Source of the DNA: a virus
Virus genome (UHGV): UHGV-0052151
Length of the DNA: 24,638 nucleotides
Reading direction: 5' to 3' (one strand)
The first letter of the stretch is position 1. Each line of letters opens with the position of its first letter. A program made the translations under genes and the position numbers. The notes under the pieces are model-generated. The model was not told the origin of the DNA, did not search any database, and worked only from the letters and a program-made list of their open reading frames with translations. Below are positions 6,654 to 20,891 of this stretch, in pieces.

Positions 6654-7304
6654 TCAGCGACTGTCATTGCGCAGTCTGCGCTCCAGCTGCTGTTTGTCTT
6701 TTTTCACGCCACAGCGAGGATCGAGCTGTAACGCATGGTTGAGATGATTAAGGGCGGAAGCCGGGTTGCTTTCACTCAGGACAGCGCCAATCGCTTTATG
6801 CAGACGCGCCCGTGACTGGTCCGGCATATCCAGACCGTCTGTCAGCTCCAGCGTCTGCAGCAACAGGTCGGCATCAAAGCCGGTGGCGGCAAGCATTGCG
6901 CTCTGCGCCGCGTCTGCCATTTCCTCTGCCAGCACGGTCTGCACGTTGCGGTTACCCAGCGGCATCACCCAGCCATGACGCAGGGCATGACGCCCGATCT
7001 CCAGCGCCCCGGCATAATCTCCGGCATCAATGCGCCACAGCATCACGTACATCAGCACGTCATCCTGTTGAGCGCCTCCGGCAGCCAGAACGCCCTCCGC
7101 CCAGGCGGCATATTTCGGCAGCAGCTCCACCTTGATTTCCGCTTTTTTGACCGTGGACTGAACGCCCTTGAGACGGCGGCGGTCTTCCGCCAGTTGCAGC
7201 AGCATCAGGTCATAGCCCGACGCGTGGCGAACACTGCCACCCTCGCGAGCGGCCTGTTCAGCCTGAACGCGCAGGCGATGCTGCCGTGCGGGACTCAGGC
7301 TCAT
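6654..7304 (-). CDS. M: Terminase small (endonuclease) subunit
   Basis: 216 aa directly downstream of N; P2 gpM position. Confidence 0.75.
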   Translation of the reverse strand: MSLSPARQHRLRVQAEQAAREGGSVRHASGYDLMLLQLAEDRRRLKGVQSTVKKAEIKVELLPKYAAWAEGVLAAGGAQQDDVLMYVMLWRIDAGDYAGALEIGRHALRHGWVMPLGNRNVQTVLAEEMADAAQSAMLAATGFDADLLLQTLELTDGLDMPDQSRARLHKAIGAVLSESNPASALNHLNHALQLDPRCGVKKDKQQLERRLRNDSR

Positions 7305-9358: not shown

Positions 9359-11125
9359 ATGAACACCACACTGACACCCGCAGATCTCGATCCCCGTCGG
9401 CAGGCCATGCTGCTGTACTTTCAGGGATACCGTGTAGCCCGCATTGCTGAAATGCTGGGCGAGAAAGTTGCAACCGTTCACAGCTGGAAGAAACGCGACA
9501 AGTGGGGTGACTATGGGCCGCTGGATCAGATGCAGCTCACCACCGCCGCACGCTACTGCCAGCTCATTATGAAGGAGCACAAAGAAGGGAAAGATTTCAA
9601 AGAGATTGACCTGCTGGCGCGCCAGTCGGAACGCCACGCGCGGATCGGCAAGTTTAACAATGGCGGCAACGAAGCCGACTTAAACCCTAACGTCGCCAAC
9701 CGCAACAAAGGCCCGCGCCGTCAGCCGGAAAAGAATGTTTTCACCGATGAGCAGATTGAGAAGCTGGAAGAAATCTTCCATTCCTCCATGTTCAACTACC
9801 AGCGCCACTGGTGGGAAGCCGGAAAAACCAACCGCATCCGCAACCTGCTGAAGTCACGCCAGATCGGCGCGACCTTTTACTTTGCCCGTGAAGCCCTGAT
9901 TGACGCTCTGCTTACCGGACGTAACCAGATTTTCCTTTCCGCCAGCAAGGCACAGGCCCACGTCTTTAAGCAGTACATCATCGACTTCGCCAAAGAAGTG
10001 GAAGTGGAGCTGAAAGGCGATCCGATGGTGCTTCCCAACGGGGCCACACTGTATTTCCTCGGCACCAATGCCCGCACGGCCCAGAGTTACCACGGCAACC
10101 TGTATCTGGATGAATATTTCTGGATACCGAAATTCCAGGAGCTGCGCAAAGTGGCTTCCGGTATGGCTATTCACAAAAAATGGCGACAAACCTATTTTTC
10201 CACGCCATCCAGCCTGACACACAGTGCTTATCCGTTCTGGTCCGGTGCGCTATTCAACCGTGGGCGCAATAAAGCCGACAAGGTGGACATCGACCTGTCC
10301 CACAGCAATCTGGCTCCAGGCCTGCTGTGTGCAGACGGGCAATACCGCCAGATAGTCACCGTGGAAGATGCGGTGCGCGGCGGCTGTAACCTGTTCGACC
10401 TTGACCAGTTGCGCATGGAATACAGCCCGGACGAATACCAGAACCTGCTGATGTGTGAATTCGTGGACGATCTCGCGTCCGTATTTCCGCTCAGCGAGCT
10501 GCAGGCATGCATGGTGGACAGTTGGGAAGTCTGGACCGACTTTCATGCACTGGCCCTGCGCCCGTTTGGCTGGCGAGAAGTGTGGATCGGTTATGACCCG
10601 GCAAAAGGTACGCAAAACGGCGACAGCGCCGGATGCGTGGTGGTGGCACCGCCAGCCGTGCCGGGTGGTAAGTTCCGCATTCTTGAGCGTCACCAGTGGC
10701 GCGGGATGGACTTCCGCGCCCAGGCTGACGCCATCAAAAAACTTACCGAACAGTACAACGTGACTTATATCGGTATCGACTCAACCGGCGTTGGTCACGG
10801 GGTTTACGAGAACGTGAAAGCGTTCTTTCCTGCCGTCCGGGAGTTTGTCTACAACCCCAACGTTAAAAACGCCCTGGTACTCAAGGCCTACGACATTATC
10901 AGCCACCGCCGTCTGGAGTTTGACGCCGGGCACACCGACATTGCGCAGTCATTCATGGCAATCCGTCGCGCAACCACCGCCAGTGGCAACCGCCCAACCT
11001 ATGAAGCCAGCCGCAGCGAAGAAGCCAGCCACGCCGATCTGGCCTGGGCAACAATGCACGCACTGTTTAACGAACCACTGCAGGGCGAGTCCGCCAATAC
11101 CAGCAATATTGTGGAGATTTTTTGA
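9359..11125 (+). CDS. P: Terminase large (ATPase) subunit
   Basis: 588 aa (P2 gpP about 590 as I recall); divergent from O; ATGA overlap with Q. Confidence 0.9.
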   Translation: MNTTLTPADLDPRRQAMLLYFQGYRVARIAEMLGEKVATVHSWKKRDKWGDYGPLDQMQLTTAARYCQLIMKEHKEGKDFKEIDLLARQSERHARIGKFNNGGNEADLNPNVANRNKGPRRQPEKNVFTDEQIEKLEEIFHSSMFNYQRHWWEAGKTNRIRNLLKSRQIGATFYFAREALIDALLTGRNQIFLSASKAQAHVFKQYIIDFAKEVEVELKGDPMVLPNGATLYFLGTNARTAQSYHGNLYLDEYFWIPKFQELRKVASGMAIHKKWRQTYFSTPSSLTHSAYPFWSGALFNRGRNKADKVDIDLSHSNLAPGLLCADGQYRQIVTVEDAVRGGCNLFDLDQLRMEYSPDEYQNLLMCEFVDDLASVFPLSELQACMVDSWEVWTDFHALALRPFGWREVWIGYDPAKGTQNGDSAGCVVVAPPAVPGGKFRILERHQWRGMDFRAQADAIKKLTEQYNVTYIGIDSTGVGHGVYENVKAFFPAVREFVYNPNVKNALVLKAYDIISHRRLEFDAGHTDIAQSFMAIRRATTASGNRPTYEASRSEEASHADLAWATMHALFNEPLQGESANTSNIVEIF

Positions 11126-12159
11126 TGGGAAAGAGTAAGAAAAACCGCGCTGCGGCGACGAATCAGATCCAGCATAAAAACCAGACTTCAGCCGAAGCAT
11201 TCAGCTTCGGTGATCCCGTTCCAGTACTTGACCGCCGCGAACTGCTGGACTATGTGGAATGTGTTCAGACAGATCGCTGGTATGAGCCTCCCGTCAGCTT
11301 TGACGGACTGGCGCGCACCTTCCGCGCTGCCGTGCATCACAGTTCCCCGATTGCAGTAAAGTGCAACATTCTGACCAGTACCTATATCCCTCATCCGCTG
11401 CTCAGCCAACAGGCTTTTTCGCGTTTTGTGCAGGACTATCTGGTATTTGGTAACGCCTACCTGGAGAAACGCACGAACCGATTCGGTGAAGTTATCGCCC
11501 TTGAGCCTGCGCTGGCAAAATACACCCGACGCGGGTTAGACCTGGATACCTACTGGTTTGTGCAATACGGTATGACAACCCAGCCGTATCAGTTCACGAA
11601 AGGCAGCATTTTTCATCTGATGGAACCGGACATCAACCAGGAGATCTACGGCCTGCCCGGCTATCTTTCTGCCATTCCATCCGCCCTGCTCAACGAATCC
11701 GCCACGCTGTTCCGCCGTAAGTATTACATCAACGGTAGTCATGCAGGCTTCATCATGTACATGACCGACGCCGCGCAGAATCAGGAGGATGTGAACAACC
11801 TCCGCAACGCGATGAAAAGCGCCAAAGGTCCAGGCAACTTCCGCAATCTGTTTATGTACTCGCCTAACGGCAAAAAGGACGGACTTCAGATTATCCCGTT
11901 GTCAGAAGTCGCAGCGAAGGATGAGTTTCTGAATATCAAGAACGTGAGCCGCGATGACATGATGGCAGCACACCGAGTGCCGCCGCAAATGATGGGGATT
12001 ATGCCTAATAATGTCGGGGGGTTTGGGGATGTGGAGAAAGCCAGCCGCGTCTTTGTTCGCAATGAGTTGATACCTCTGCAGAAGCGCCTTCAGGAATTGA
12101 ACGACTGGCTTGGAGAAGAAGTCATGCGTTTTGAAGATTATAATTTAGGTATTGAATGA
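11122..12159 (+). CDS. Q: Portal (capsid vertex) protein
   Basis: 345 aa (P2 gpQ about 344 as I recall); immediately after P. Confidence 0.9.
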   Translation: MMGKSKKNRAAATNQIQHKNQTSAEAFSFGDPVPVLDRRELLDYVECVQTDRWYEPPVSFDGLARTFRAAVHHSSPIAVKCNILTSTYIPHPLLSQQAFSRFVQDYLVFGNAYLEKRTNRFGEVIALEPALAKYTRRGLDLDTYWFVQYGMTTQPYQFTKGSIFHLMEPDINQEIYGLPGYLSAIPSALLNESATLFRRKYYINGSHAGFIMYMTDAAQNQEDVNNLRNAMKSAKGPGNFRNLFMYSPNGKKDGLQIIPLSEVAAKDEFLNIKNVSRDDMMAAHRVPPQMMGIMPNNVGGFGDVEKASRVFVRNELIPLQKRLQELNDWLGEEVMRFEDYNLGIE

Positions 12160-12164
12160 TATTT

Positions 12165-12195
12165 AAAAGCCTGTACAAACAGGCTTTTATTCTTT
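12165..12195. terminator. Bidirectional rho-independent terminator between convergent Q and cargo operon
   Basis: AAAAGCCTGT-acaa-ACAGGCTTTT hairpin with an A-run on one side and a T-run on the other, 6 nt after the Q stop. Confidence 0.6.
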
Positions 12196-12228
12196 AGTTT
12201 AAAATCACCAAGACATGAGCATTAAAAC

Positions 12229-12894
12229 TTAAAGATCCGGATCTACAGGCTCATGATATAGATTTACAGGGTAATGAATAACTTCATAATTCAGTTGAGT
12301 AACTGTGTGAACATGCTGGCTATAAAAAACCAATGGATTTTTTTGACAAGGAGTAATCGTTATAGATTTACAGGCATGAATTCTTGGTGCGAATTTATCT
12401 AAATGCGCCTTCCAGTTGCTCATCATTTCATTACATTTTCTATTACGAGTATAGATAATCAATCCACCACTTGCGCTGTCTACGGTCCCTGTACTATATC
12501 GCTCAGTGAGTTGAGCATACCCTTTAAATAAATAACTATATGAAGATGTATGTTTTTTGGCTTCGCCATGCCAAATATAATCCTTTAGTTTTATTGTAAT
12601 ATCACAATGTCCGCGCTGATTATTTTCATGATATGCTTCAATGCCCATATCTTTATTTTTGATATTGGCCAATAAAATTAAAGTAAGCTGATCTTCTGTT
12701 AAATCGAAGTTTAACTTATTTGAATTCTCTTCTATTTCCTTTACAGCAGAATCAAGTTCAATCCTGACAAATTGTTTGAAATTATCGTACGATTGAAGTG
12801 CAAATCTAACACGAGTAATAGAAGCATTAATACGCTGAAGAAAAATATCATTATCAATATCAGCCAAACTCATTGCTGCAGACATTTTTAACAT
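12229..12894 (-). CDS. Hypothetical protein, third gene of AT-rich three-gene operon; weak PD-(D/E)xK-like motif
   Basis: 221 aa; ATG at 12894 shares one base with the upstream stop (TGATG); AT-rich codons; segment GHCDITIKLKDYIWHGEAKK; no family recognised. Confidence 0.6.
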   Translation of the reverse strand: MLKMSAAMSLADIDNDIFLQRINASITRVRFALQSYDNFKQFVRIELDSAVKEIEENSNKLNFDLTEDQLTLILLANIKNKDMGIEAYHENNQRGHCDITIKLKDYIWHGEAKKHTSSYSYLFKGYAQLTERYSTGTVDSASGGLIIYTRNRKCNEMMSNWKAHLDKFAPRIHACKSITITPCQKNPLVFYSQHVHTVTQLNYEVIHYPVNLYHEPVDPDL

Positions 12895-13328
12895 CAGATA
12901 ATATCCTTTGATTTAGATTCATCTAATGTAAAAAAAGGAAATACGAATGACTTATAGTCATACATAAGCTCCCCTGTAAATGGGTTTGCTAAAGATTGAC
13001 TGATTTCCGCCTCAATAACTTCCTCTATTTCAAGTTCTACAGGGTCATGAAAATCATCAACGAACCAATAATTGAGTTTTAAAAAATCAACCTTTGGGCT
13101 ACAAAGAATTTGTATGGCCGGATAGATAACCTGCTCATACGTTTCTGGCTGTAAAACCTTATTATAACCACCAGCTATATTAAATAAATCCTTATAACTT
13201 AAAGCTATATTTGATGATTTTTTAGCCCTTGCCTCGATTTCATCGTACAAATAGCAAGCTAACGCCCCAATTTCAGGGCGTTCTGCACACATTTCTTTGA
13301 TGATCTTGGGCATATCACCATCCTTCAT
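12894..13328 (-). CDS. Hypothetical acidic protein, second gene of the operon
   Basis: Track ORF 12894-13340 (TTG); ATG at 13328 with GGAG 6 nt upstream preferred; acidic C-terminal half (EIEEVIEAEISQS...); no family recognised. Confidence 0.55.
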   Translation of the reverse strand: MKDGDMPKIIKEMCAERPEIGALACYLYDEIEARAKKSSNIALSYKDLFNIAGGYNKVLQPETYEQVIYPAIQILCSPKVDFLKLNYWFVDDFHDPVELEIEEVIEAEISQSLANPFTGELMYDYKSFVFPFFTLDESKSKDII

Positions 13329-13340
13329 TGCTGACTCCAA

Positions 13341-14447
13341 TTATAATATCAGCTTTGTGAGGGTTTCGAAATCATCTTTGGATATACATTTACTTAATAT
13401 AGCATAGTTAACAGGAGAGCAACTACTCCCTCCTAGATGCCTGCGGAGTGTTCCCGGAATGATAAGCTCTACGTTATCCGCTAATTGCAGTTTTGGATTA
13501 TTTCTATCAACTCTAATTCCAATACGATACAAACCAATACTGCCTACTGCTTTGATGCCTTCCTTATTAAACAAATCATCACGTAAGTCTTTAGTGGCCA
13601 CATTTTTCTTTTCTTTATGCGTAGTCCCCTCATTCGTCAAAAATGACAAATCAAAGACTTTATAGCTTAATTTTGAATAAGGCAATGAATTTTGTTTGAA
13701 AATTGGCTCAATTAACGGATAAAAATCTTTTTCCGATGATTTAAATTCATAACCGACATGATTATACAATTCACGAATAATGTTACTCTTTGCAAAAGTA
13801 ACATTATCACCAATAATATTACCATTAGTATCTACCAAAACATGAATTTTATTAGTAACAGAGTCTAATATACAGACATCAAAACATTGTCGCTTTTCTT
13901 TTCGCTTTGCAATAATTTCATCAAACTGCTTGTATTGCGCAAGTGCTGACGGGGGAATTTTTTCTCTTACAACTAATTCTCTGACAGATGAAAAAACAAG
14001 TATTGACTGGGTGTTTTGAATAGAATAATTAACAAGTTCAGGTTGATTTTTTACAGCATTTTGCAATTGGACATCATCAAGGATCGAATCAACCAATAAT
14101 GATGGTTGATTCATCAAATTCCATTGAAAACTAAATCTGTCATTTAGTGTTTTAATTACACTATTATCTACAGTCAAACTAAATATTGCTTTTTCACCAT
14201 AAACGACCTGACCAAAAATTAGGTCATTTACGTTTGCCATAATGCCATCAAACTTTTGCCTATCTTTACTTTTAAGATCAATGAGGCTTTCTAGTATTTT
14301 TTCGTTTGTTGCTTCACGCCCCCTACCTGTTGGCAGCCCTAAAGACGCAATAATTGGCCTTGCAACGTTCCATGTGAAACGTTCAGTTAAGGTCAAGATC
14401 GACTTTAACTCAGACTTAGAAAGCACTACTGGGACACTACCTGTCAT
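13341..14447 (-). CDS. Hypothetical protein, first gene of the operon
   Basis: Track ORF to 14456 (GTG); ATG at 14447 preceded by AGGTG; about 368 aa; no P-loop or other motif recognised. Confidence 0.6.
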   Translation of the reverse strand: MTGSVPVVLSKSELKSILTLTERFTWNVARPIIASLGLPTGRGREATNEKILESLIDLKSKDRQKFDGIMANVNDLIFGQVVYGEKAIFSLTVDNSVIKTLNDRFSFQWNLMNQPSLLVDSILDDVQLQNAVKNQPELVNYSIQNTQSILVFSSVRELVVREKIPPSALAQYKQFDEIIAKRKEKRQCFDVCILDSVTNKIHVLVDTNGNIIGDNVTFAKSNIIRELYNHVGYEFKSSEKDFYPLIEPIFKQNSLPYSKLSYKVFDLSFLTNEGTTHKEKKNVATKDLRDDLFNKEGIKAVGSIGLYRIGIRVDRNNPKLQLADNVELIIPGTLRRHLGGSSCSPVNYAILSKCISKDDFETLTKLIL

Positions 14448-14597
14448 AACTTGCACCTAGTCATCCAAAAAGCAATAAGAATTTGCTCTTGTCTTAATTT
14501 ATCCTTCGATACCTAACAAATTACCTCAATGTTGAAAAAATTTGCAAGCCATTTGCTTCTAAAAAGCGACCTTACTCAGAGTGTTACAAAACTAAGC

Positions 14598-14633
14598 GAG
14601 CGCGCGCTCGTATCCCCGCCACGCCTGCCCGCT
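14598..14633. other. Candidate cos (cohesive-end) site
   Basis: Minus strand reads GGCGTGGCGGGGATACGAG; its first 13 nt match the P2/186 19-nt cohesive end as I recall it (GGCG[A/T]GGCGGGGAAAGCA[C/T]). It sits in a GC-rich island between Q and A, where cos is expected; a 14-bp perfect palindrome CGAGCGCGCGCTCG (14598-14611) is adjacent. Confidence 0.4.
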
Positions 14634-14947
14634 TTATGTAGTGGTTTTCATGCACCTGCATGTTCTACGTAAAAGCCCGCTAGTTCTGGCGAGCCTTAGC
14701 AAAAACGATCCTTAAACGATCATGCGATTTCATGCAGCATAGTCATGCACTGTCTAAGAGAAGTGAAAGTCCGTATCTGAATGACCACTTGAAAAACGAA
14801 ACATACAGACTTACAAAGATGAAGCTCTACTGTGAGCGAGGAACATACATAGTTGCTCTGTAATAGCCAAATTTTAAGCAGGAAATCTCTTTTTTATGAC
14901 AAAACTATAAAGAAAAACAGACCGTTTCATCGCTCGATGAAAATATA

Positions 14948-16525
14948 CTACAATACTTTTCTCTCGATGGTATTTTTAATAGTCAACATATCTTTAGGAA
15001 TACTTTTTTTCCCCTCTATACGTATGGTAAACACAAAAAGAATAACGGCTGATCTCACAATTTTCATGAGTTGTAAGAGCTGTTTCTCAAACTTTTCTTT
15101 CTCAATAAACCTCACCTCATCAAAAAACCCATAAGAATTATATAAATCAACTAACATGTCTTTCTCGTGAATAACTAACAGTTTATGTTCTAAATCATTC
15201 CTCCATTCTTTAAAAAAAGCAAGCTCACCATTTTTATCATTCAAATCCATAGCAATACTAAACAAACCCAGCAATCCTTTATTATTTATTTTGTTTATTT
15301 TAAGCTTTCTTTTTTCATCACTAATCCGCCAGAAGTTATGAAAGTATATATGTCCTCTATCTGGTTTTAAATCAAATAATTGACACAGAGCAACTGCTAT
15401 TTTATCCAAGATACCAAAGCAAGCTCTAAATGCAACCCTTAACTTCTCAACATTTTCATACAATATTTCTCCATTATACAATTCAGAATAACATACCTCC
15501 GAATCCTCATCAAAAAACTCACTATCAACCTTATATTCAAAAAACATTTTTCGTGCTAAGGAATACTCAGCTTTAAGTCTATTTAACACCATTTCCATTG
15601 GCACTATAAAATCACCAAACACACCTTCCTCGGTGGTAGCAATAGTTATATTATCTTTAGATGACGCATAACAATTGCAATATAGCGAATGATCAGACAA
15701 CATTAGATTATTATCTATACAAAACCTCTGGTAGTTTGATAAAGTATCATACTCCTCCTGCGTGAGCCTTTCATCTGTACTTATATCCTCTATGCCATAT
15801 ACACATGATTCACTCAATATACTTTCGTTGTACTTTATTTTTCTTTGAAGAGCAACCTTCCATGAAGGAAAACATTTCCCTGACTTTATTGCACACTCAT
15901 AACCTCGAATAACTTCTTTAATCATTTTATATGTATATGTTGTAGATAATTCATTAAGCAATTCTAATGCCTCAGATCTGTTTACCCACGCCTGAGGAAT
16001 TGAGTTATCAATAGATATTGCTTGTTCATAATAATCCATTGATTCAGATATACGATATTGTTTTTTTAATACATTAGCTAGATTAACTATTAAATCAGGG
16101 GGCACCCATCCATCTTCTTGTGAAAGTTTAAACGCTTTCCAGTAATTATTTTTTACATCATTCAGCTTAATGAAACTATCAATATCTGCATTGTCATTAG
16201 GATTAAAATCAAGAACTGCGCTCATTCCATTTGCCAAGTTATAGTAATATAAGGATTCTTTCATTATAGTCAGAAATTCATTTTTATTGTTTATAAAGAT
16301 ATTTAAGCCTTCCTCTGCTATATTTTTTACATTACTAAAACTTCCGATATCAATAAGATTTCCGGCCAAATTAGATAATATAATTATTCTATTTTCTTTG
16401 ATTGTATTTATCTCATCGATACCGTTAAGAATATCCTTTACATTTTTATAGGCAGAATCAAATGAACCTGCATTAATAAGATCATCTACGAACCCCATTT
16501 TTGAAACAACATAGTTGATATCCAT
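14948..16525 (-). CDS. Hypothetical 525-aa protein; helical/TPR-like N-terminal region, C-terminal Rx4H (HEPN-like) motif
   Basis: ATG at 16525 with AGAGGA 6 nt upstream; strongly AT-rich; occupies the old/tin position of P2; no Walker A, no reverse-transcriptase YxDD motif; WRNDLEHK near residue 442. Confidence 0.6.
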   Translation of the reverse strand: MDINYVVSKMGFVDDLINAGSFDSAYKNVKDILNGIDEINTIKENRIIILSNLAGNLIDIGSFSNVKNIAEEGLNIFINNKNEFLTIMKESLYYYNLANGMSAVLDFNPNDNADIDSFIKLNDVKNNYWKAFKLSQEDGWVPPDLIVNLANVLKKQYRISESMDYYEQAISIDNSIPQAWVNRSEALELLNELSTTYTYKMIKEVIRGYECAIKSGKCFPSWKVALQRKIKYNESILSESCVYGIEDISTDERLTQEEYDTLSNYQRFCIDNNLMLSDHSLYCNCYASSKDNITIATTEEGVFGDFIVPMEMVLNRLKAEYSLARKMFFEYKVDSEFFDEDSEVCYSELYNGEILYENVEKLRVAFRACFGILDKIAVALCQLFDLKPDRGHIYFHNFWRISDEKRKLKINKINNKGLLGLFSIAMDLNDKNGELAFFKEWRNDLEHKLLVIHEKDMLVDLYNSYGFFDEVRFIEKEKFEKQLLQLMKIVRSAVILFVFTIRIEGKKSIPKDMLTIKNTIERKVL

Positions 16526-16812
16526 TCAATCCTCTTTAAACTAAGCTAATAATACCAATCATTATATGGATGAGATCAATATAGAACATGCCATCTCCGG
16601 CAAAAATCGTACTACATCAGACCAGTGCCCTTCAAATAATATAAATTGAACTTAGATACTTCTGCTTCAACCAGTGTGTTAAATCCATCGCTTGAACTCA
16701 GAACAAAAAGCGGACGATCACTTATCAAAATGGCCGTCCACCTAACGCCTCGTTTCACTCGTTGCCCAAAATAGTCCCCCATCAGAATGAATCCTCTTGG
16801 GGGCAACGTTTC

Positions 16813-17046
16813 TTAATGCAGCCAGCTGTCGTCTTCCCACACCTTCTGCATAATTTTCATCACTTGCTTCCTTTCTTCGTCCAGTTGCAGTCCGGTCAGT
16901 TCCACACCGTTAGAGCTACCTTTGCGAATGCGAATTACCGTTTTGGGATACAGGGGGCGCAGATTGCGGTAAAGCTCGGATTCAAGGGCGTCCAGGGTAG
17001 ACTGGCTAATCTTCTGCTCTTTATCGATCATTATTTCAATGCGCAT
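16813..17046 (-). CDS. DinI-like SOS protein (C-terminal-Tum-like)
   Basis: Track ORF 16813-17118; ATG at 17046 with GAGGTG upstream gives MRIEIMIDKEQKISQSTLDALESELYRNL...QKVWEDDSWLH, resembling the DinI N- and C-terminal patterns. Confidence 0.7.
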   Translation of the reverse strand: MRIEIMIDKEQKISQSTLDALESELYRNLRPLYPKTVIRIRKGSSNGVELTGLQLDEERKQVMKIMQKVWEDDSWLH

Positions 17047-17056
17047 AAAAGTCACC

Positions 17057-17245
17057 TCAGCTGATGACATCCATTGAGCGGTTGTATTCGTGGGTTCTGA
17101 TTTTTGCCATGAGTTCATCTGTCAGTTCAGAAACCCACTGCAGGGCCAGCCCCTTCTCTTCATCACTACACTCACTAGCCGCTACAAGCTTAAGAAAAAA
17201 ATCAATGCGCTGGAGCTTCAAAGACTCCAAAAAATAGTCCTGCAT
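17057..17245 (-). CDS. Small SOS-operon protein (possible antirepressor, 186 Tum N-terminal-like by position)
   Basis: ATG at 17245 with AGGAGG 6 nt upstream; 62 aa; LexA box 44 nt upstream; stop 10 nt before the DinI-like start. Confidence 0.45.
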   Translation of the reverse strand: MQDYFLESLKLQRIDFFLKLVAASECSDEEKGLALQWVSELTDELMAKIRTHEYNRSMDVIS

Positions 17246-17287
17246 CTTTCCTCCTATGACACCACAAGCAATACTGTATGCATAACC

Positions 17288-17307
17288 ACTGTTTATATTT
17301 ACAGTAT
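17288..17307. promoter_or_regulatory. LexA operator (SOS box)
   Basis: ACTGTTTATATTTACAGTAT: perfect CTGT-N8-ACAG with AT-rich centre, immediately upstream of the small ORF/DinI-like operon; a TTTACA -35-like hexamer lies just upstream on the minus strand. Confidence 0.7.
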
Positions 17308-17398
17308 ATAATAATCTTACTGATGTAAAACGTTTTTTTACGTTCATCAGCCTGATATACCTGGTATTATTAAGAGCACGAATTGTTAACCCGCGTAA

Positions 17399-19813
17399 TT
17401 AATACAGGTTCCGCCACTTATCATCTTCCTGCAAACGCTGGTTCCGATAGAAAATACGCAGGCCTGCTCCTGACGGAATGCTGCCGCCGCGAAGGAGTAA
17501 ATCGACCTCTTTCTCGCTGCCATCAAATCCTCTGGACTTCAGTTCATAGACGAGCTGCTGTCGCTGATGATCTGTAATTCGCTGTTTGTAGTCTCTACGC
17601 CGTTTCGGTTTCACCAGGCGTAACCTTGCAGCCAGTTCCCGACGCTCTTTTTTGTTCATACTGTGCAGGTAATCGTGCAATTCCTTGTCATCCATGCGGG
17701 TGATATCCGTTCTGGTATCCCCATCAGCTGATTTGTCTTTCCCTTGTTGGTACAAATTTTCAGCAAGGGGACAGTTATTGCCACGAGTCCAAGGGGCGCA
17801 AGCGCCATGGTCGGCTGCCGCCTCCTGAACGTCAACGGCCTTACGAACCATTTTCCACTTCACGGCATGAGTGCAGATCTTGCCCTCTGCAATAGGTGAC
17901 CAGATGCCATAAATACGAATGCCGTGATCGCCATAGGCGGTCGGCTCTTCGTTGATTTCATAAGCAGTTCTGATGAGGTGATATTTACGGGGAACCAGTA
18001 CGCCGCCCTGCTTCATGATGTAGGTGGCAAAACAACCAGCATCAGCAGCAGCCAGGATTGCATCAAGCCGCGGGTTATCCAGTACCGGCGCACCTGCTTT
18101 TTTGTCACCCTGTTGCCTTGCCGCCTGACCAGCCAGCAATCGCAGTTCACGGTAAGCCTGACGCCCCGGAATGCCAAAGAAGCGGAATTGCTGAACACGA
18201 TGCAGAGACGCCCAGGCATTCACGTATTCAGCGTTATCACGCAGGGATTTACCCGTTTCCTTGCTGATCTCGCCAGCCAGACCACGCCCGTCAATGTTCT
18301 TACTGATATATTTCGCGATGTAGCTTGTCGGCGTTCCTTTGCGCGGGTTAATCAACTCAGACTTAAAGCGTGGTCCCGTGTTATTCCCCAGCTCCTCGCG
18401 GTCTTCACGAATGGCAAACTTACGCAACAAAGCAGTAATGGCGCGGCGATCTTTTTTGCGCATAAAACACAACAGGTGCCAGTGAACTGTACCGTCATGA
18501 TGCGGCTCAGCCACCCGCACGCCATACCAGCGCAATCCGGCTTTGTGCATCGCCTTACGAAATGCAGCAAACATGCCAACCAGATAATCACTGCTTTGTC
18601 TTACCGTCGCATTTGTCCAGGTCGGGTTGGGCCTGCCGTTATTTAGCGTGGAATGGAAACGTGACGGACAGGTGATGGTGTAGAAAACGGCGCAGTCACC
18701 GCGCATTTCCGCGATAAGCTCCAGGCCTTTAACACAGGCCATCATCTCATTGCGGCGATGCGCAGGGTTGCTGCTGCTGGCGTTTACCACATCCTCCATG
18801 TCCAGCGTGTCGCCGTCTTCGTTCACCAGTTCATGAGAACGGAAAAACTCCAGCGACTTACGGCGCTGCTCACGTTTATGCATCACGGCTTCATAGCTGA
18901 CATAGGGAGATGCTTTTTTGCTGACCAGACAGACAGCACGCAACTGCTCTTCCCGCCATTCGCAACGCATCTTCCATAATTTCCGATACCACCAGTCGGC
19001 GCACAGCATACGCGCCAGCGAACCCGGAATGAGTTCATAGGGCACAGGTTTGCGGCGGTTTCTTTTCCGGCGGAGTTGCTCAAACGCAGGCGGTATGACA
19101 TCCAGTCGCAGGGTTTCTGCTGCCACCTTTTCCCATGTCTTGCGGATTTCTTCCGGCTTAACATCATCGGAGGCGTACAAATCACCACAAGCGGCATCAA
19201 GGCACATACTCATATGCGCAGCTACCAGGGTGGACAGGCGTTTCACCTGATCCTGACTCATTTCAGGCAGGATCAGCAGGCCGTCCAGCCCTTCATGGCT
19301 TGCCATAAAGCGAAAAGACGCAGATAGCTGACTGTCGCGTACATGCTCCAGTCGTTCCAGACATGGCTTAATCGTCTCACGCAAATAGCGGGAATAAGCC
19401 TTTGGCCTGCTCAGGCTGCTGAAGTATTCAATACGTTGCATCAGCGGCTTGCTGATATGGGAAGGCTGGGCGTTGACGTCCGCCAGAATGACCATATCCG
19501 GATTAAAACGCTGCTGCTCATGCGCCAGCTTTGCCCGACTAATGAGCTTATCCTGTTCCATTTCGCGCTGGACAGGATCACGGGATTCATTAAAGAAATA
19601 ACGCTCCCAGACCTGATCACTCAGCGCCTCACGGCGCAGCTGTTCCTGCTCGTTATCGGCAGCGTACAGAGTGATCAGGTTTGAAAGCGCAGAAACCGGC
19701 GCAACTTCCGCCGGGTCCAGATAAGGGTTAATGGCCTTTTTCGGGCTGTTCCATGAGAATGCTGCGGCGACCTCGTTAAAGCCGCTGCAGTTGTTCATAT
19801 CAGCATGGCTCAT
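17399..19813 (-). CDS. A: Rolling-circle replication initiator (P2 gpA-like)
   Basis: 804 aa; HUH motif (VHWHLL) and paired active-site tyrosines (YIAKYISK); ATG at 19813 overlaps the dam stop (ATGA). Confidence 0.9.
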
Positions 19814-20667
19814 GCACGCACTCCGTACACGGCAGAACTATCCACGCCACGCGAAGGATCAAATCCCACCCAGCAGCGCGGCCCGGAAACAGCGATGATT
19901 TCTGTTGCAGATTTACTCTCACCAGCTGCCACACCGATGCTGCGTTTTGCCTTGATGTAGTGGTGAGTAAAATTGCGATATAGCGAACGGATCAGGGATG
20001 TGTCACTGTTAGAAACAATGACCGGATGTCCTTCTGATGACCGATGTTCAAGAACGGATGCCAGGTGATACTGGTCATCTTCAGTGAAACCATCAGTGTG
20101 ATAGCCGGAAAACGTACCGTCATACGGCGGATCGCAATACACCACATCCCCCACCTGCAGCATCGCCAGCGTTTCATCAAAGCTTGCGCAGATAAACGTT
20201 GCCCGCTGGGCTTTCTCTGCAAATGCGCGAATTTCTTTTTCAGGGAAATACGGATTTTTATAATTACCGTACGGAATGTTGAAATGCCCGCTCTTGTTAT
20301 AGCGACATAAACCACGGTAACCGTGACGATTGAGATACAGGAAATATACCGCTTTCATGAAATCAGTAATTTCAGTTGAGTAATTAAACTCCTGCCTTAT
20401 GTTGTAATAAGCCACCTCCCTGTTTGCTTCCTTAAATAAAACTCTGGCGCGAGATATAAACGATTCACAATCAGCGGCAACCTTTTTATAGAGGTTGATT
20501 AAATCAGGATTAATATCCGCAACCAGATAGCTTGGATAATCCGTCGCCATCATCACAGCACAGGAACCTGCGAAAGGTTCAACCAGTCGCGGGCCAGCAG
20601 GAAGGTGTTTTTTCAGTTCGGACATAATTGCGGTTTTATTTCCCGCCCATTTCAGGATGGTGCTCAT
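19810..20667 (-). CDS. dam: DNA adenine methyltransferase (Dam family, orphan)
   Basis: Track ORF to 20727; ATG at 20667 ([11 protein letters not shown]...) preferred; motif [10 protein letters not shown] and motif IV DPPY (VYCDPPYDG); no adjacent restriction gene. Confidence 0.85.
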
Positions 20668-20891
20668 ACAGCACCTCCGTTGTAATGTTTGCCTTTCAGC
20701 TCTGCGATTTCCTGACAGGTAATGCAAAGCTGCACACCTGGAATGGCGCGGCGGCGTGCTGGCGGAATTGGCGCTTCACACTCAATGCAAAGCACGCGGG
20801 ACACGCCCGGCGTTTTGGCACGGGCAGCACGGATATGGCGCTGGCGTTCTTCTTCAACGCGCTGCTGTACGAGATCCATTGCATCAGCCAT
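20664..20891 (-). CDS. TraR/DksA-family C4 zinc-finger protein
   Basis: 75 aa with CIEC-x17-CITC spacing (CxxC-x17-CxxC) typical of phage TraR-like proteins. Confidence 0.65.
   Translation of the reverse strand: MADAMDLVQQRVEEERQRHIRAARAKTPGVSRVLCIECEAPIPPARRRAIPGVQLCITCQEIAELKGKHYNGGAV

What the first reader, a model, noticed from the sequence alone, without database searches (positions are those of the whole stretch)
14585..14840. GC-rich island with a cos-like 19-mer embedded in AT-rich cargo
A roughly 250-bp GC-rich stretch interrupts the AT-rich region. On the minus strand it contains GGCGTGGCGGGGATACGAG, whose first 13 nt match my recollection of the P2/186 cohesive end, immediately beside a perfect 14-bp palindrome. 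If this is cos, it diverges from the canonical end in the last 6 positions, and the prophage carries cargo on both sides of it.
Basis: partly seen in the sequence, partly recalled or inferred. Interest (0 to 1): 0.6.

Follow-up and report, generated by a model that had tools for sequence, protein, structure and literature searches.

The report
Packaging (cos) site of Fels-2-like prophage
The flagged stretch is the DNA-packaging (cos) site of a Fels-2-like, P2-family prophage of E. coli, kept intact between two swappable blocks of accessory genes; this layout is already known, so the finding is correct but ordinary.

Summary
GGCGTGGCGGGGATACGAG lies on the minus strand at 14625->14607. A perfect 14-bp palindrome lies at 14597-14610; it overlaps the 19-mer by 4 nt. 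GC is 47% in 14585-14840, against 31-34% in the flanking genes.

The 19-mer is identical to the annotated putative cos of Salmonella phage SEN8 and E. coli phage Cartapus, and occurs in Fels-2. It matches the 186 cohesive end at 15/19 positions and P2 at 14/19. It sits between gpA and portal Q, oriented as in P2.

It is the centre of a 151-bp block (14600-14750) present in 1277 of 5426 complete E. coli genomes. Homology stops sharply at both edges of that block, and different cargo genes lie beyond each edge. The block contains the 55-bp P2/P4-type core, (T/C)GCATGA repeats, an inverted repeat and a terminator-like hairpin. Only 11 bp of the palindrome are conserved.

Cargo on both sides is normal for this lineage: 85 of 94 loci have it between cos and Q. 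The gpA-gpQ region is a published defence hotspot next to cos.

I found no report that maps the cut positions experimentally for this variant. Novelty: already known. A side note: no P4-like satellite sampled carries this cos variant.

The parts
14600..14750 (-). Conserved cos block of 151 bp, the only sequence kept between the two variable cargo modules.
   Evidence: In 41 distinct sequences that carry the same 19-mer, per-column conservation rises sharply at 14750 and falls sharply after 14600. Megablast hits in 1277 of 5426 E. coli genomes end at 14599-14601 and mostly begin near 14750. Phage hits span 14599-14751.
14607..14625 (-). The 19-nt sequence GGCGTGGCGGGGATACGAG. It is the predicted 5'-protruding cohesive end (cosN equivalent), with nicks predicted 5' of 14625 on the minus strand and at the 14607/14606 boundary on the plus strand.
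   Evidence: Identical to the annotated cos of SEN8 and Cartapus. It matches 186 at 15/19 and P2 at 14/19, in register. It is invariant in all 41 aligned relatives by construction. It is also kept in Chitinimonas and Pasteurella prophages whose flanks have diverged. The nick positions are inferred by homology only.
14600..14654 (-). 55-bp core equivalent to the P2/P4 shared cos core: TGCATGAAAACC...AAAGCGGGCA, then the 19-mer, then CGCGCGC.
   Evidence: Identity to the corresponding stretch is 42/55 for P2, 43/55 for P4, 46/56 for 186 and 54/55 for SEN8. The 55-bp core concept of Ziermann and Calendar 1990 is taken as cited in PMC5694545.
14597..14610 (.). Perfect 14-bp palindrome CGAGCGCGCGCTCG. 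Only 14600-14610 is conserved; the outer 3 nt (14597-14599) belong to the variable flank.
   Evidence: One search confirms the palindrome. One search gives conservation of 0.5, 0.2 and 0.2 at 14599-14597. Fels-2 and SEN8 have only GCGCGCGC here, and Cartapus has a 12-bp palindrome.
14649..14662 (.). Inverted repeat CATGCA-NN-TGCATG. It looks like a dyad-symmetric protein-binding site, and I infer that the terminase binds here.
   Evidence: Highly conserved. The central dinucleotide is GG in some species and CC in others while both arms are kept. 186 has CATGCAACTGCAT at the same place.
14671..14695 (-). Terminator-like hairpin GGCTCGCCAGAACTAGCGGGCTTTT. In most relatives it is a perfect GCCCGCCA/TGGCGGGC stem followed by TTTT.
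   Evidence: Predicted to fold. Variants are tabulated over 127 distinct sequences. This prophage's copy has one C.A mismatch and one G.U pair. No clear compensatory changes were seen, so an RNA terminator and a DNA binding site cannot be told apart.
14703..14721 (-). Two direct GATCGTTT repeats, each with a Dam GATC site (14707-14710 and 14718-14721).
   Evidence: Read directly from the sequence. Conserved. Function not tested.
14720..14749 (-). Three direct (T/C)GCATGA repeats at 14749-14743, 14736-14730 and 14726-14720. A fourth lies at 14654-14648. I infer that these are small-terminase binding sites (cosB-like).
   Evidence: Four of the 15 minus-strand GCATGA sites in the whole window fall in this 151-bp block, where about 0.09 are expected. 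The GCAT cores are invariant in the alignment with 186 and P2.
12229..14456 (-). Left (Q-side) cargo: a three-gene operon of unknown function, 34% GC.
   Evidence: ORFs; PGAP annotation. No Pfam, PADLOC or NCBIfam family. PHROGs 12777, 11490 and 9664, all of unknown function.
14948..16525 (-). Right (gpA-side) cargo: a TPR plus LA2681-type HEPN protein, 31% GC.
   Evidence: Pfam PF18733, E = 1.8e-38. PGAP annotation.
11122..12159 (+). Portal gene (P2 Q homologue), read toward cos.
   Evidence: Pfam Phage_portal. 62% identical to P2 gpQ.
9359..11125 (+). Large terminase (P2 P homologue), the enzyme expected to cut cos.
   Evidence: Pfam Terminase_6N, Terminase_6C and Terminase_5. 63% identical to P2 gpP.
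6654..7304 (-). Small terminase (P2 M homologue), the expected cos-recognition subunit.
   Evidence: Pfam Phage_term_smal, E = 2.2e-40. 50% identical to P2 gpM over residues 3-171.
17399..19813 (-). Replication endonuclease (P2 A homologue), which bounds the variable region on the other side.
   Evidence: PGAP annotation.

Best explanation
Window 14600-14750 is the cos site of a Fels-2-like member of the P2 family (Peduoviridae) integrated in E. coli.

Inferred mechanism, by homology with P2 and 186: the prophage's terminase (small subunit M at 6654-7304, large subunit P at 9359-11125) recognises the block. Recognition probably goes through the (T/C)GCATGA repeats and the CATGCA-NN-TGCATG dyad, which lie on the gpA side of the cut. 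The terminase then makes staggered nicks on either side of GGCGTGGCGGGGATACGAG (14625->14607). That would give virion DNA 19-nt 5' cohesive ends, which re-anneal to circularise the genome after injection.

Shown here: everything between gpA and Q other than this block is replaceable accessory DNA. The block therefore survives as a backbone-like GC island between two AT-rich cargo modules that are exchanged independently.
For: - The 19-mer is identical to the annotated cos of SEN8 and Cartapus, and is present in Fels-2.
- It aligns in register with the 186 and P2 cos ends and their flanks. The 55-bp core matches at 46/56 (186), 42/55 (P2) and 54/55 (SEN8).
- It has the same map position and orientation as in P2.
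- Portal and both terminase genes are intact.
- The block is found in 1277 of 5426 complete E. coli genomes, with sharp homology edges at 14599-14601 and about 14750.
- Cargo differs on each side between genomes. The same left operon sits beside DarTG or a DUF6694 lipoprotein. The same HEPN gene sits beside a PIN-domain protein.
- The exact 19-mer, with full cos context, occurs in 50 species representatives. In 120 of 128 loci it is next to P2-type Q and/or A genes.
- SEN8 is an infectious phage, and Cartapus DNA is found in virions.
Against: - No experimental mapping of the ends was found for this 19-mer variant. The SEN8 and Cartapus annotations were themselves made by sequence inspection or homology.
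- Which elements the terminase binds is inference only.
- This copy's hairpin has a C.A mismatch that no other sequence in the set shares.
- Whether this prophage can be induced is unknown.
Confidence: 0.93

Rival explanations
1. The block is a relic cos in a defective prophage: homologous to a cos site but no longer cut or packaged in this strain.
For: Inducibility cannot be tested here. The terminator-like hairpin carries a mismatch unique to this copy. Some related E. coli prophages are visibly decayed, for example the frameshifted terminase in NIPH17_0020.
Against: The 55-bp core differs by one base from infectious SEN8 (54/55) and from Cartapus, whose DNA is packaged into virions. The portal, both terminase subunits, scaffold and capsid ORFs are full length. 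The window is 96% identical over 75% of its length to Klebsiella phage 4LV2017.
Confidence: 0.04
2. The block is conserved mainly as a transcriptional insulator or terminator between two cargo operons, and the resemblance of the 19-mer to cos is incidental.
For: The block contains a conserved terminator-like hairpin. It lies between the stop of the HEPN gene and the start of the three-gene operon, both on the minus strand.
Against: The hairpin covers only 25 of the 151 conserved bases. The best-conserved part is the 19-mer and its flanks, which align in register with the annotated 186 and P2 cohesive ends. No other cos candidate exists in the window.
Confidence: 0.01
3. The block is a target for site-specific recombination (like an integron attC or attI) that drives cargo exchange, rather than a packaging site.
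For: Homology breaks sharply at both edges in more than a thousand genomes, and the two sides carry independent cargo.
Against: No recombinase gene is linked to the block. The cargo junctions flank the whole 151-bp block and do not fall at one crossover point inside it. Purifying selection on cos, combined with recombination in the flanks, explains the sharp edges. Rousset et al. proposed only that cohesive ends might stimulate recombination.
Confidence: 0.02

Closest known systems
Putative cos of Fels-2-like phages: Salmonella phage SEN8 (NC_047753, positions 1-19), E. coli phage Cartapus (OV696611, positions 1-59) and Fels-2 (NC_010463)
   Same: The 19-mer is identical. The 55-bp core matches SEN8 at 54/55 and differs from Cartapus by one base. 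The GCATG repeats and the hairpin are the same. Cargo genes lie on both sides, between gpA/DinI and portal Q.
   Different: The cargo genes differ. The 14-bp palindrome is 8 bp in SEN8 and Fels-2 and 12 bp in Cartapus. This copy's hairpin has one mismatch.
cos of phages 186 and PsP3 (GGCGTGGCGGGGAAAGCAT)
   Same: The first 13 nt are identical. The upstream CATAAAG(C/T)GGGCA and the downstream GCGCGC are shared, as are the CATGCA-NN-TGCAT dyad and the upstream GCAT repeats. Orientation toward the portal gene is the same.
   Different: Positions 14, 16, 17 and 19 of the overhang differ. In 186 and PsP3, cos lies about 175-180 bp from the portal stop with no cargo between them.
cos of phage P2 (GGCGAGGCGGGGAAAGCAC) and the 55-bp core it shares with satellite P4
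   Same: It matches at 14/19 in the overhang and 42/55 in the core (43/55 for P4). The map position is the same.
   Different: Position 5 and the 3' part of the overhang differ. P2 carries cargo (old, tin) only on the gpA side. The head and packaging proteins are only 39-63% identical.
P2 gpA-gpQ defence hotspot (Rousset et al. 2022, PMC9122126; Dodd and Egan 1996 as cited in PMC5694545)
   Same: Variable AT-rich accessory or defence genes lie directly next to cos, between gpA and gpQ. The cosL-Q interval is also described as an insertion hotspot.
   Different: There is nothing new in kind. This instance combines a HEPN/TPR gene on one side with an unannotated three-gene operon on the other. 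That combination occurs in 1 of 5426 complete E. coli genomes.
Lambda cos (cosQ-cosN-cosB)
   Same: The logic is the same: a nicking site that gives 5' cohesive ends, next to repeated recognition elements on one side. This comparison rests on established knowledge of lambda.
   Different: There is no sequence relationship. The overhang is 19 nt, not 12 nt. Here nearly all conserved sequence lies on one side of the nick site: 125 bp on the gpA side against 7 bp on the Q side.

Membership tests
P2-family (Peduoviridae) cos site | A 19-nt sequence homologous to the P2 and 186 cohesive ends. | tested here: met
   It matches 186 at 15/19 and P2 at 14/19, and is identical (19/19) to the annotated SEN8 and Cartapus cos.
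P2-family (Peduoviridae) cos site | A conserved core of about 55 bp around the ends, shared across P2-family phages and P4. | tested here: met
   Window 14600-14654 aligns at 42/55 (P2), 43/55 (P4), 46/56 (186) and 54/55 (SEN8). The core definition is taken from PMC5694545.
P2-family (Peduoviridae) cos site | Located between the replication gene A region and portal gene Q, with the 19-mer reading toward the 3' end of Q. | tested here: met
   Q is at 11122-12159 (+), cos at 14625->14607 (-) and A at 17399-19813 (-). This is the same arrangement as in P2.
P2-family (Peduoviridae) cos site | Cognate P2-type terminase (gpM and gpP) and portal genes encoded by the same element. | tested here: met
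   Pfam Phage_term_smal, Terminase_6N/6C/5 and Phage_portal. Identity to P2 proteins is 50-63%.
P2-family (Peduoviridae) cos site | Terminase cuts here in vivo and produces 19-nt 5' cohesive ends on virion DNA. | not testable with these tools
   This needs virion DNA end mapping. No experimental mapping of this variant was found in the held literature.
P2 gpA-gpQ defence hotspot | Variable gene content next to cos, between conserved gpA and gpQ, across related prophages. | tested here: met
   Cargo differs on both sides in strains S40, C 236-04A, M8 and NIPH17_0020. The distance from cos to Q is 509-3516 bp in 85 of 94 loci.
P2 gpA-gpQ defence hotspot | The cargo genes actually confer anti-phage defence. 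| tested here: inconclusive
   The right cargo has an LA2681-type HEPN domain. PADLOC gives no defence-system model for any cargo protein, only a weak TPR hit. Function cannot be tested here.
Rfam RNA families | A match to a curated RNA covariance model. | tested here: not met
   No match with E <= 1 in 14300-15100.

The most novel reading that the evidence does not exclude
The TACGAG-ending cohesive end may be a packaging-specificity variant that P4-type satellites do not use. None of 128 loci with this exact 19-mer carries the P4 genes psu, sid, delta or alpha. None of 74 cos sites found downstream of psu has this 19-mer. By contrast, 10 of 83 loci with other 19-mer variants are P4-like satellites. 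If the 3' part of the overhang determines terminase specificity, there are two possibilities. Fels-2-like phages, present in about a quarter of complete E. coli genomes, could be insulated from P4-type piracy. Alternatively, they could be exploited by satellites not yet recognised.
Probability: 0.15. Interest if true: 0.5.

Novelty: already known. Interest (0 to 1): 0.15.

Why it matters
The finding has practical value for annotation. It fixes the virion genome ends of this prophage. It splits the gpA-gpQ variable region into two cargo slots that are exchanged independently. It also delimits, by natural variation, a 151-bp stretch that is probably sufficient for packaging in Fels-2-like phages. 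It teaches nothing new about how cos sites work or about defence hotspots. Two modest leads remain: the uncharacterised three-gene cargo operon, and the absence of this cos variant from the P4-like satellites sampled.

Tried and rejected
- Rfam scan of 14300-15100 at E <= 1: no match. An RNA gene is not supported.
- Sigma-70 promoter scan: no promoter-like site in the intergenic region. The terminator scan picked up only the GC palindrome and a weak stem, and missed the conserved hairpin because its T-run has only 4 T.
- RNA fold of 14640-14760: z-score -1.46, not remarkable as a whole.
- RNAalifold on the hairpin sub-alignment returned no consensus structure. Inspection by hand showed few compensatory changes, so an RNA terminator and a DNA binding site cannot be separated.
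- Search for a second cos next to Q: none. The only other hit has 2 mismatches, lies at 19841-19853, and is at chance level.
- The primary paper on the P2 and P4 cos sites (Ziermann and Calendar 1990) is not in the held library, so I did not use its deletion data. I make no claim about packaging direction because I could not verify it.
- PADLOC, Pfam and NCBIfam searches on the three left-cargo proteins gave no family.
- Two loci with this cos but no Q or A nearby were checked. L038 looks like a prophage with large cargo. L079 has an IS3-type transposase and a Terminase_2 gene. Neither was pursued.

Full report
**What the window is.** The window is a P2-family prophage in reverse orientation relative to the P2 map.
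- The scaffold (O), capsid (N) and small terminase (M) homologues are on the minus strand.
- Large terminase P (9359-11125) and portal Q (11122-12159) are on the plus strand.
- An AT-rich stretch follows from about 12160 to 16800.
- DinI, a small ORF and the replication endonuclease A (17399-19813) then lie on the minus strand.

The variable region 12100-17400 is 100% identical to the chromosome of E. coli isolate F437 (NZ_OY754398.1). The closest phage records are Klebsiella phage 4LV2017 and related phages, at 96% identity over 75% of the window. The head and packaging proteins are only 39-63% identical to those of P2. The prophage is therefore a Fels-2-like member of the family, not a P2 or 186 look-alike.

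**Checking the observation.**
- The 19-mer GGCGTGGCGGGGATACGAG is on the minus strand at 14625->14607.
- The palindrome CGAGCGCGCGCTCG is at 14597-14610 and overlaps the last four bases of the 19-mer.
- GC is 46.9% over 14585-14840. The cargo genes on either side have 34.2% and 30.7%, and the prophage backbone 48-56%. Only 14597-14630 is strongly GC-rich, at 79%.
- The 13-mer occurs once in the window without mismatch.
Its annotated cos is GGCGTGGCGGGGAAAGCAT. P2 has an A at position 5.
- Only positions 14, 16, 17 and 19 differ from 186, not all of the last six.

**What it is.** A distant BLAST of the intergenic region against the phage records finds one conserved piece, window 14599-14751, in 83-91 Peduoviridae records from Klebsiella, Salmonella, Escherichia and Yersinia, including Fels-2.

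Two records are cut at or next to this sequence:
- Salmonella phage SEN8 begins with the identical 19-mer, annotated 'putative cos site'. Its genome announcement reports it as the cos site found during annotation (PMC5427200).
- E. coli phage Cartapus annotates positions 1-59 as 'putative cos site, homologous to the cos of P2 phage', and that stretch contains the same 19-mer.

I aligned the window with junctions rebuilt from the two ends of the 186, P2, SEN8 and Cartapus records. The 19-mer falls exactly in register with the annotated 186 and P2 cohesive ends. The upstream AAAG(C/T)GGGC(A), the downstream GCGCGC, the TGCAT-AAAACC element and the upstream GCAT repeats are all shared. The stretch equivalent to the 55-bp P2/P4 core (14600-14654) matches 42/55 with P2, 43/55 with P4, 46/56 with 186 and 54/55 with SEN8. 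The core concept is cited in PMC5694545. Orientation is as in P2: the 19-mer reads toward the 3' end of the portal gene.

**How far the functional unit extends.** A megablast of 14300-15000 against 5426 complete E. coli genomes hits 1277 of them. Almost every hit ends at window 14599-14601, and most begin at about 14750. An alignment of 41 distinct sequences with the same 19-mer shows conservation switching on at 14750 and off after 14600. Natural variation thus delimits a 151-bp block.

Reading the minus strand, the block contains:
- three direct (T/C)GCATGA repeats (14749-14720);
- two GATCGTTT repeats, each with a Dam site (14721-14703);
- a terminator-like hairpin (14695-14671);
- the dyad CATGCA-NN-TGCATG (14662-14649);
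- a spacer;
- the 19-mer (14625-14607);
- CGCGCGC (14606-14600).

GCATGA is about 40-fold enriched in the block. The central NN of the dyad is GG in some species and CC in others while the arms are kept. That pattern fits a symmetric protein-binding site. The outer three bases of the 14-bp palindrome lie in the variable flank and are not conserved. The full palindrome is therefore specific to this junction; only the GCGCGC run and the end of the 19-mer are conserved.

**Breadth.** The exact 19-mer occurs in 54 species-representative genomes. Fifty of these have the full cos context. They span many Enterobacterales, Pasteurella testudinis and Chitinimonas, and in the last two the flanks have diverged more than the 19-mer. 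The other four hits are in unrelated phyla, lack the context, and fit my estimate of about four chance matches in 596 Gb. In IMG/VR, 120 of 128 loci with this 19-mer also encode a P2-type portal and/or gpA nearby.

**Cargo on both sides.** The left cargo (14456->12229) is a three-gene operon with no Pfam, PADLOC or NCBIfam family. The right cargo (16525->14948) is a TPR plus LA2681-type HEPN protein.

Other E. coli genomes combine these modules differently:
- The same left operon lies beside DarTG in strain S40 and beside a DUF6694 lipoprotein in C 236-04A.
- The same HEPN gene lies beside a PIN-domain protein in strain M8.
- Strain NIPH17_0020 has an HsdR-N protein on one side and a P-loop NTPase on the other.

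Only one of the 5426 genomes has this exact combination.

Among loci with this 19-mer, the distance from cos to the Q stop is 509-3516 bp in 85 of 94 and about 140-173 bp in nine. Loci with the P2-type 19-mer mostly show about 169 bp, that is, no cargo. Two-sided cargo is therefore the rule for this lineage.

This is published. The gpA-gpQ locus is described as a defence hotspot adjacent to cos (PMC9122126; PMC13586616). The cosL-Q interval is named as an insertion hotspot, with reference to Dodd and Egan 1996 (PMC5694545).

**Mechanism and its status.**
- Shown: homology, position, orientation, the extent of conservation, the presence of intact packaging genes, and the modular exchange of the flanks.
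- Inferred from P2 and 186: the terminase nicks on either side of the 19-mer to give 5' cohesive ends.
- Inferred from the anatomy: the GCATGA repeats and the dyad are terminase binding sites, and the hairpin stops read-through from the DinI/cargo operon.
- Not found: any experimental mapping of the ends for the TACGAG variant. SEN8's site came from annotation. Cartapus DNA was shown to be in virions, but its ends were not mapped.

**Rivals.**
- A decayed cos is unlikely, given the near-identity of the core to SEN8 (54/55) and Cartapus and the intact head genes.
- A pure terminator or insulator role does not explain why the 19-mer and its flanks are the best-conserved part.
- A dedicated recombination site lacks a recombinase and a single crossover point.
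- No RNA family matches.

**Seen in passing.** None of the P4-like satellites sampled carries this cos variant: 0 of 128 loci with the 19-mer, and 0 of 74 cos sites downstream of psu. Ten of 83 loci with other variants are P4-like. The samples are biased, so this is a lead and not a result.

**Verdict.** The feature is the ordinary cos site of a common prophage type, lying in a known hotspot. Novelty: already known. Interest is low.

Noticed in passing
window 12229-14456 (minus strand): A three-gene operon (371, 148 and 221 aa) fills the slot between cos and Q. It has no Pfam, PADLOC or NCBIfam family, only PHROGs 12777, 11490 and 9664 of unknown function. The same operon sits beside different right-hand cargo in other E. 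coli strains (DarTG, DUF6694 lipoprotein). It is a candidate uncharacterised anti-phage system.
   Followed up: partly
window 14948-16525 (minus strand): The right-hand cargo is a 525-aa protein with TPR repeats and an LA2681-type HEPN domain (PF18733, E = 1.8e-38). PADLOC has no defence-system model for it. The same gene occurs next to a PIN-domain left cargo in strain M8.
   Followed up: partly
loci L017-L220 and L275-L354 (IMG/VR): The TACGAG cos variant was never found on a P4-like satellite: 0 of 128 loci with the 19-mer, and 0 of 74 cos sites 155-167 bp downstream of psu. Those satellite cos sites carry AAAGCAC, AGAGCAT and similar ends. Ten of 83 loci with other variants are P4-like.
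   Followed up: partly
window 14707-14710 and 14718-14721: Two conserved GATC (Dam) sites lie within direct GATCGTTT repeats inside the cos block. The prophage encodes its own DNA adenine methylase (window 19810-20727; PGAP annotation). A possible link between methylation and packaging was not examined.
   Followed up: no
L222, L223, L227, L228, L231, L252, L255, L266 (Chitinimonas sp. BJB300 and C. taiwanensis): These betaproteobacterial genomes carry three to five copies each of the exact enterobacterial 19-mer, in a recognisable but diverged cos context. This suggests several P2-like prophages per genome and strong constraint on the 19-mer itself.
   Followed up: no
L079 (IMGVR_UViG_3300013991_000001, 11.9-kb contig), cos at 1730-1748: The same cos 19-mer lies next to an IS3-type transposase and a Terminase_2 small-terminase gene, with no P2-type Q or A in the 5.2 kb held. 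It could be a chimeric contig, cargo, or a different kind of cos-bearing element.
   Followed up: partly
window 14752-14843: About 90 bp on the gpA side of the cos block is shared at about 87% identity by only a subset of E. coli prophages (for example hits H128-H135). Its role is unknown.
   Followed up: no
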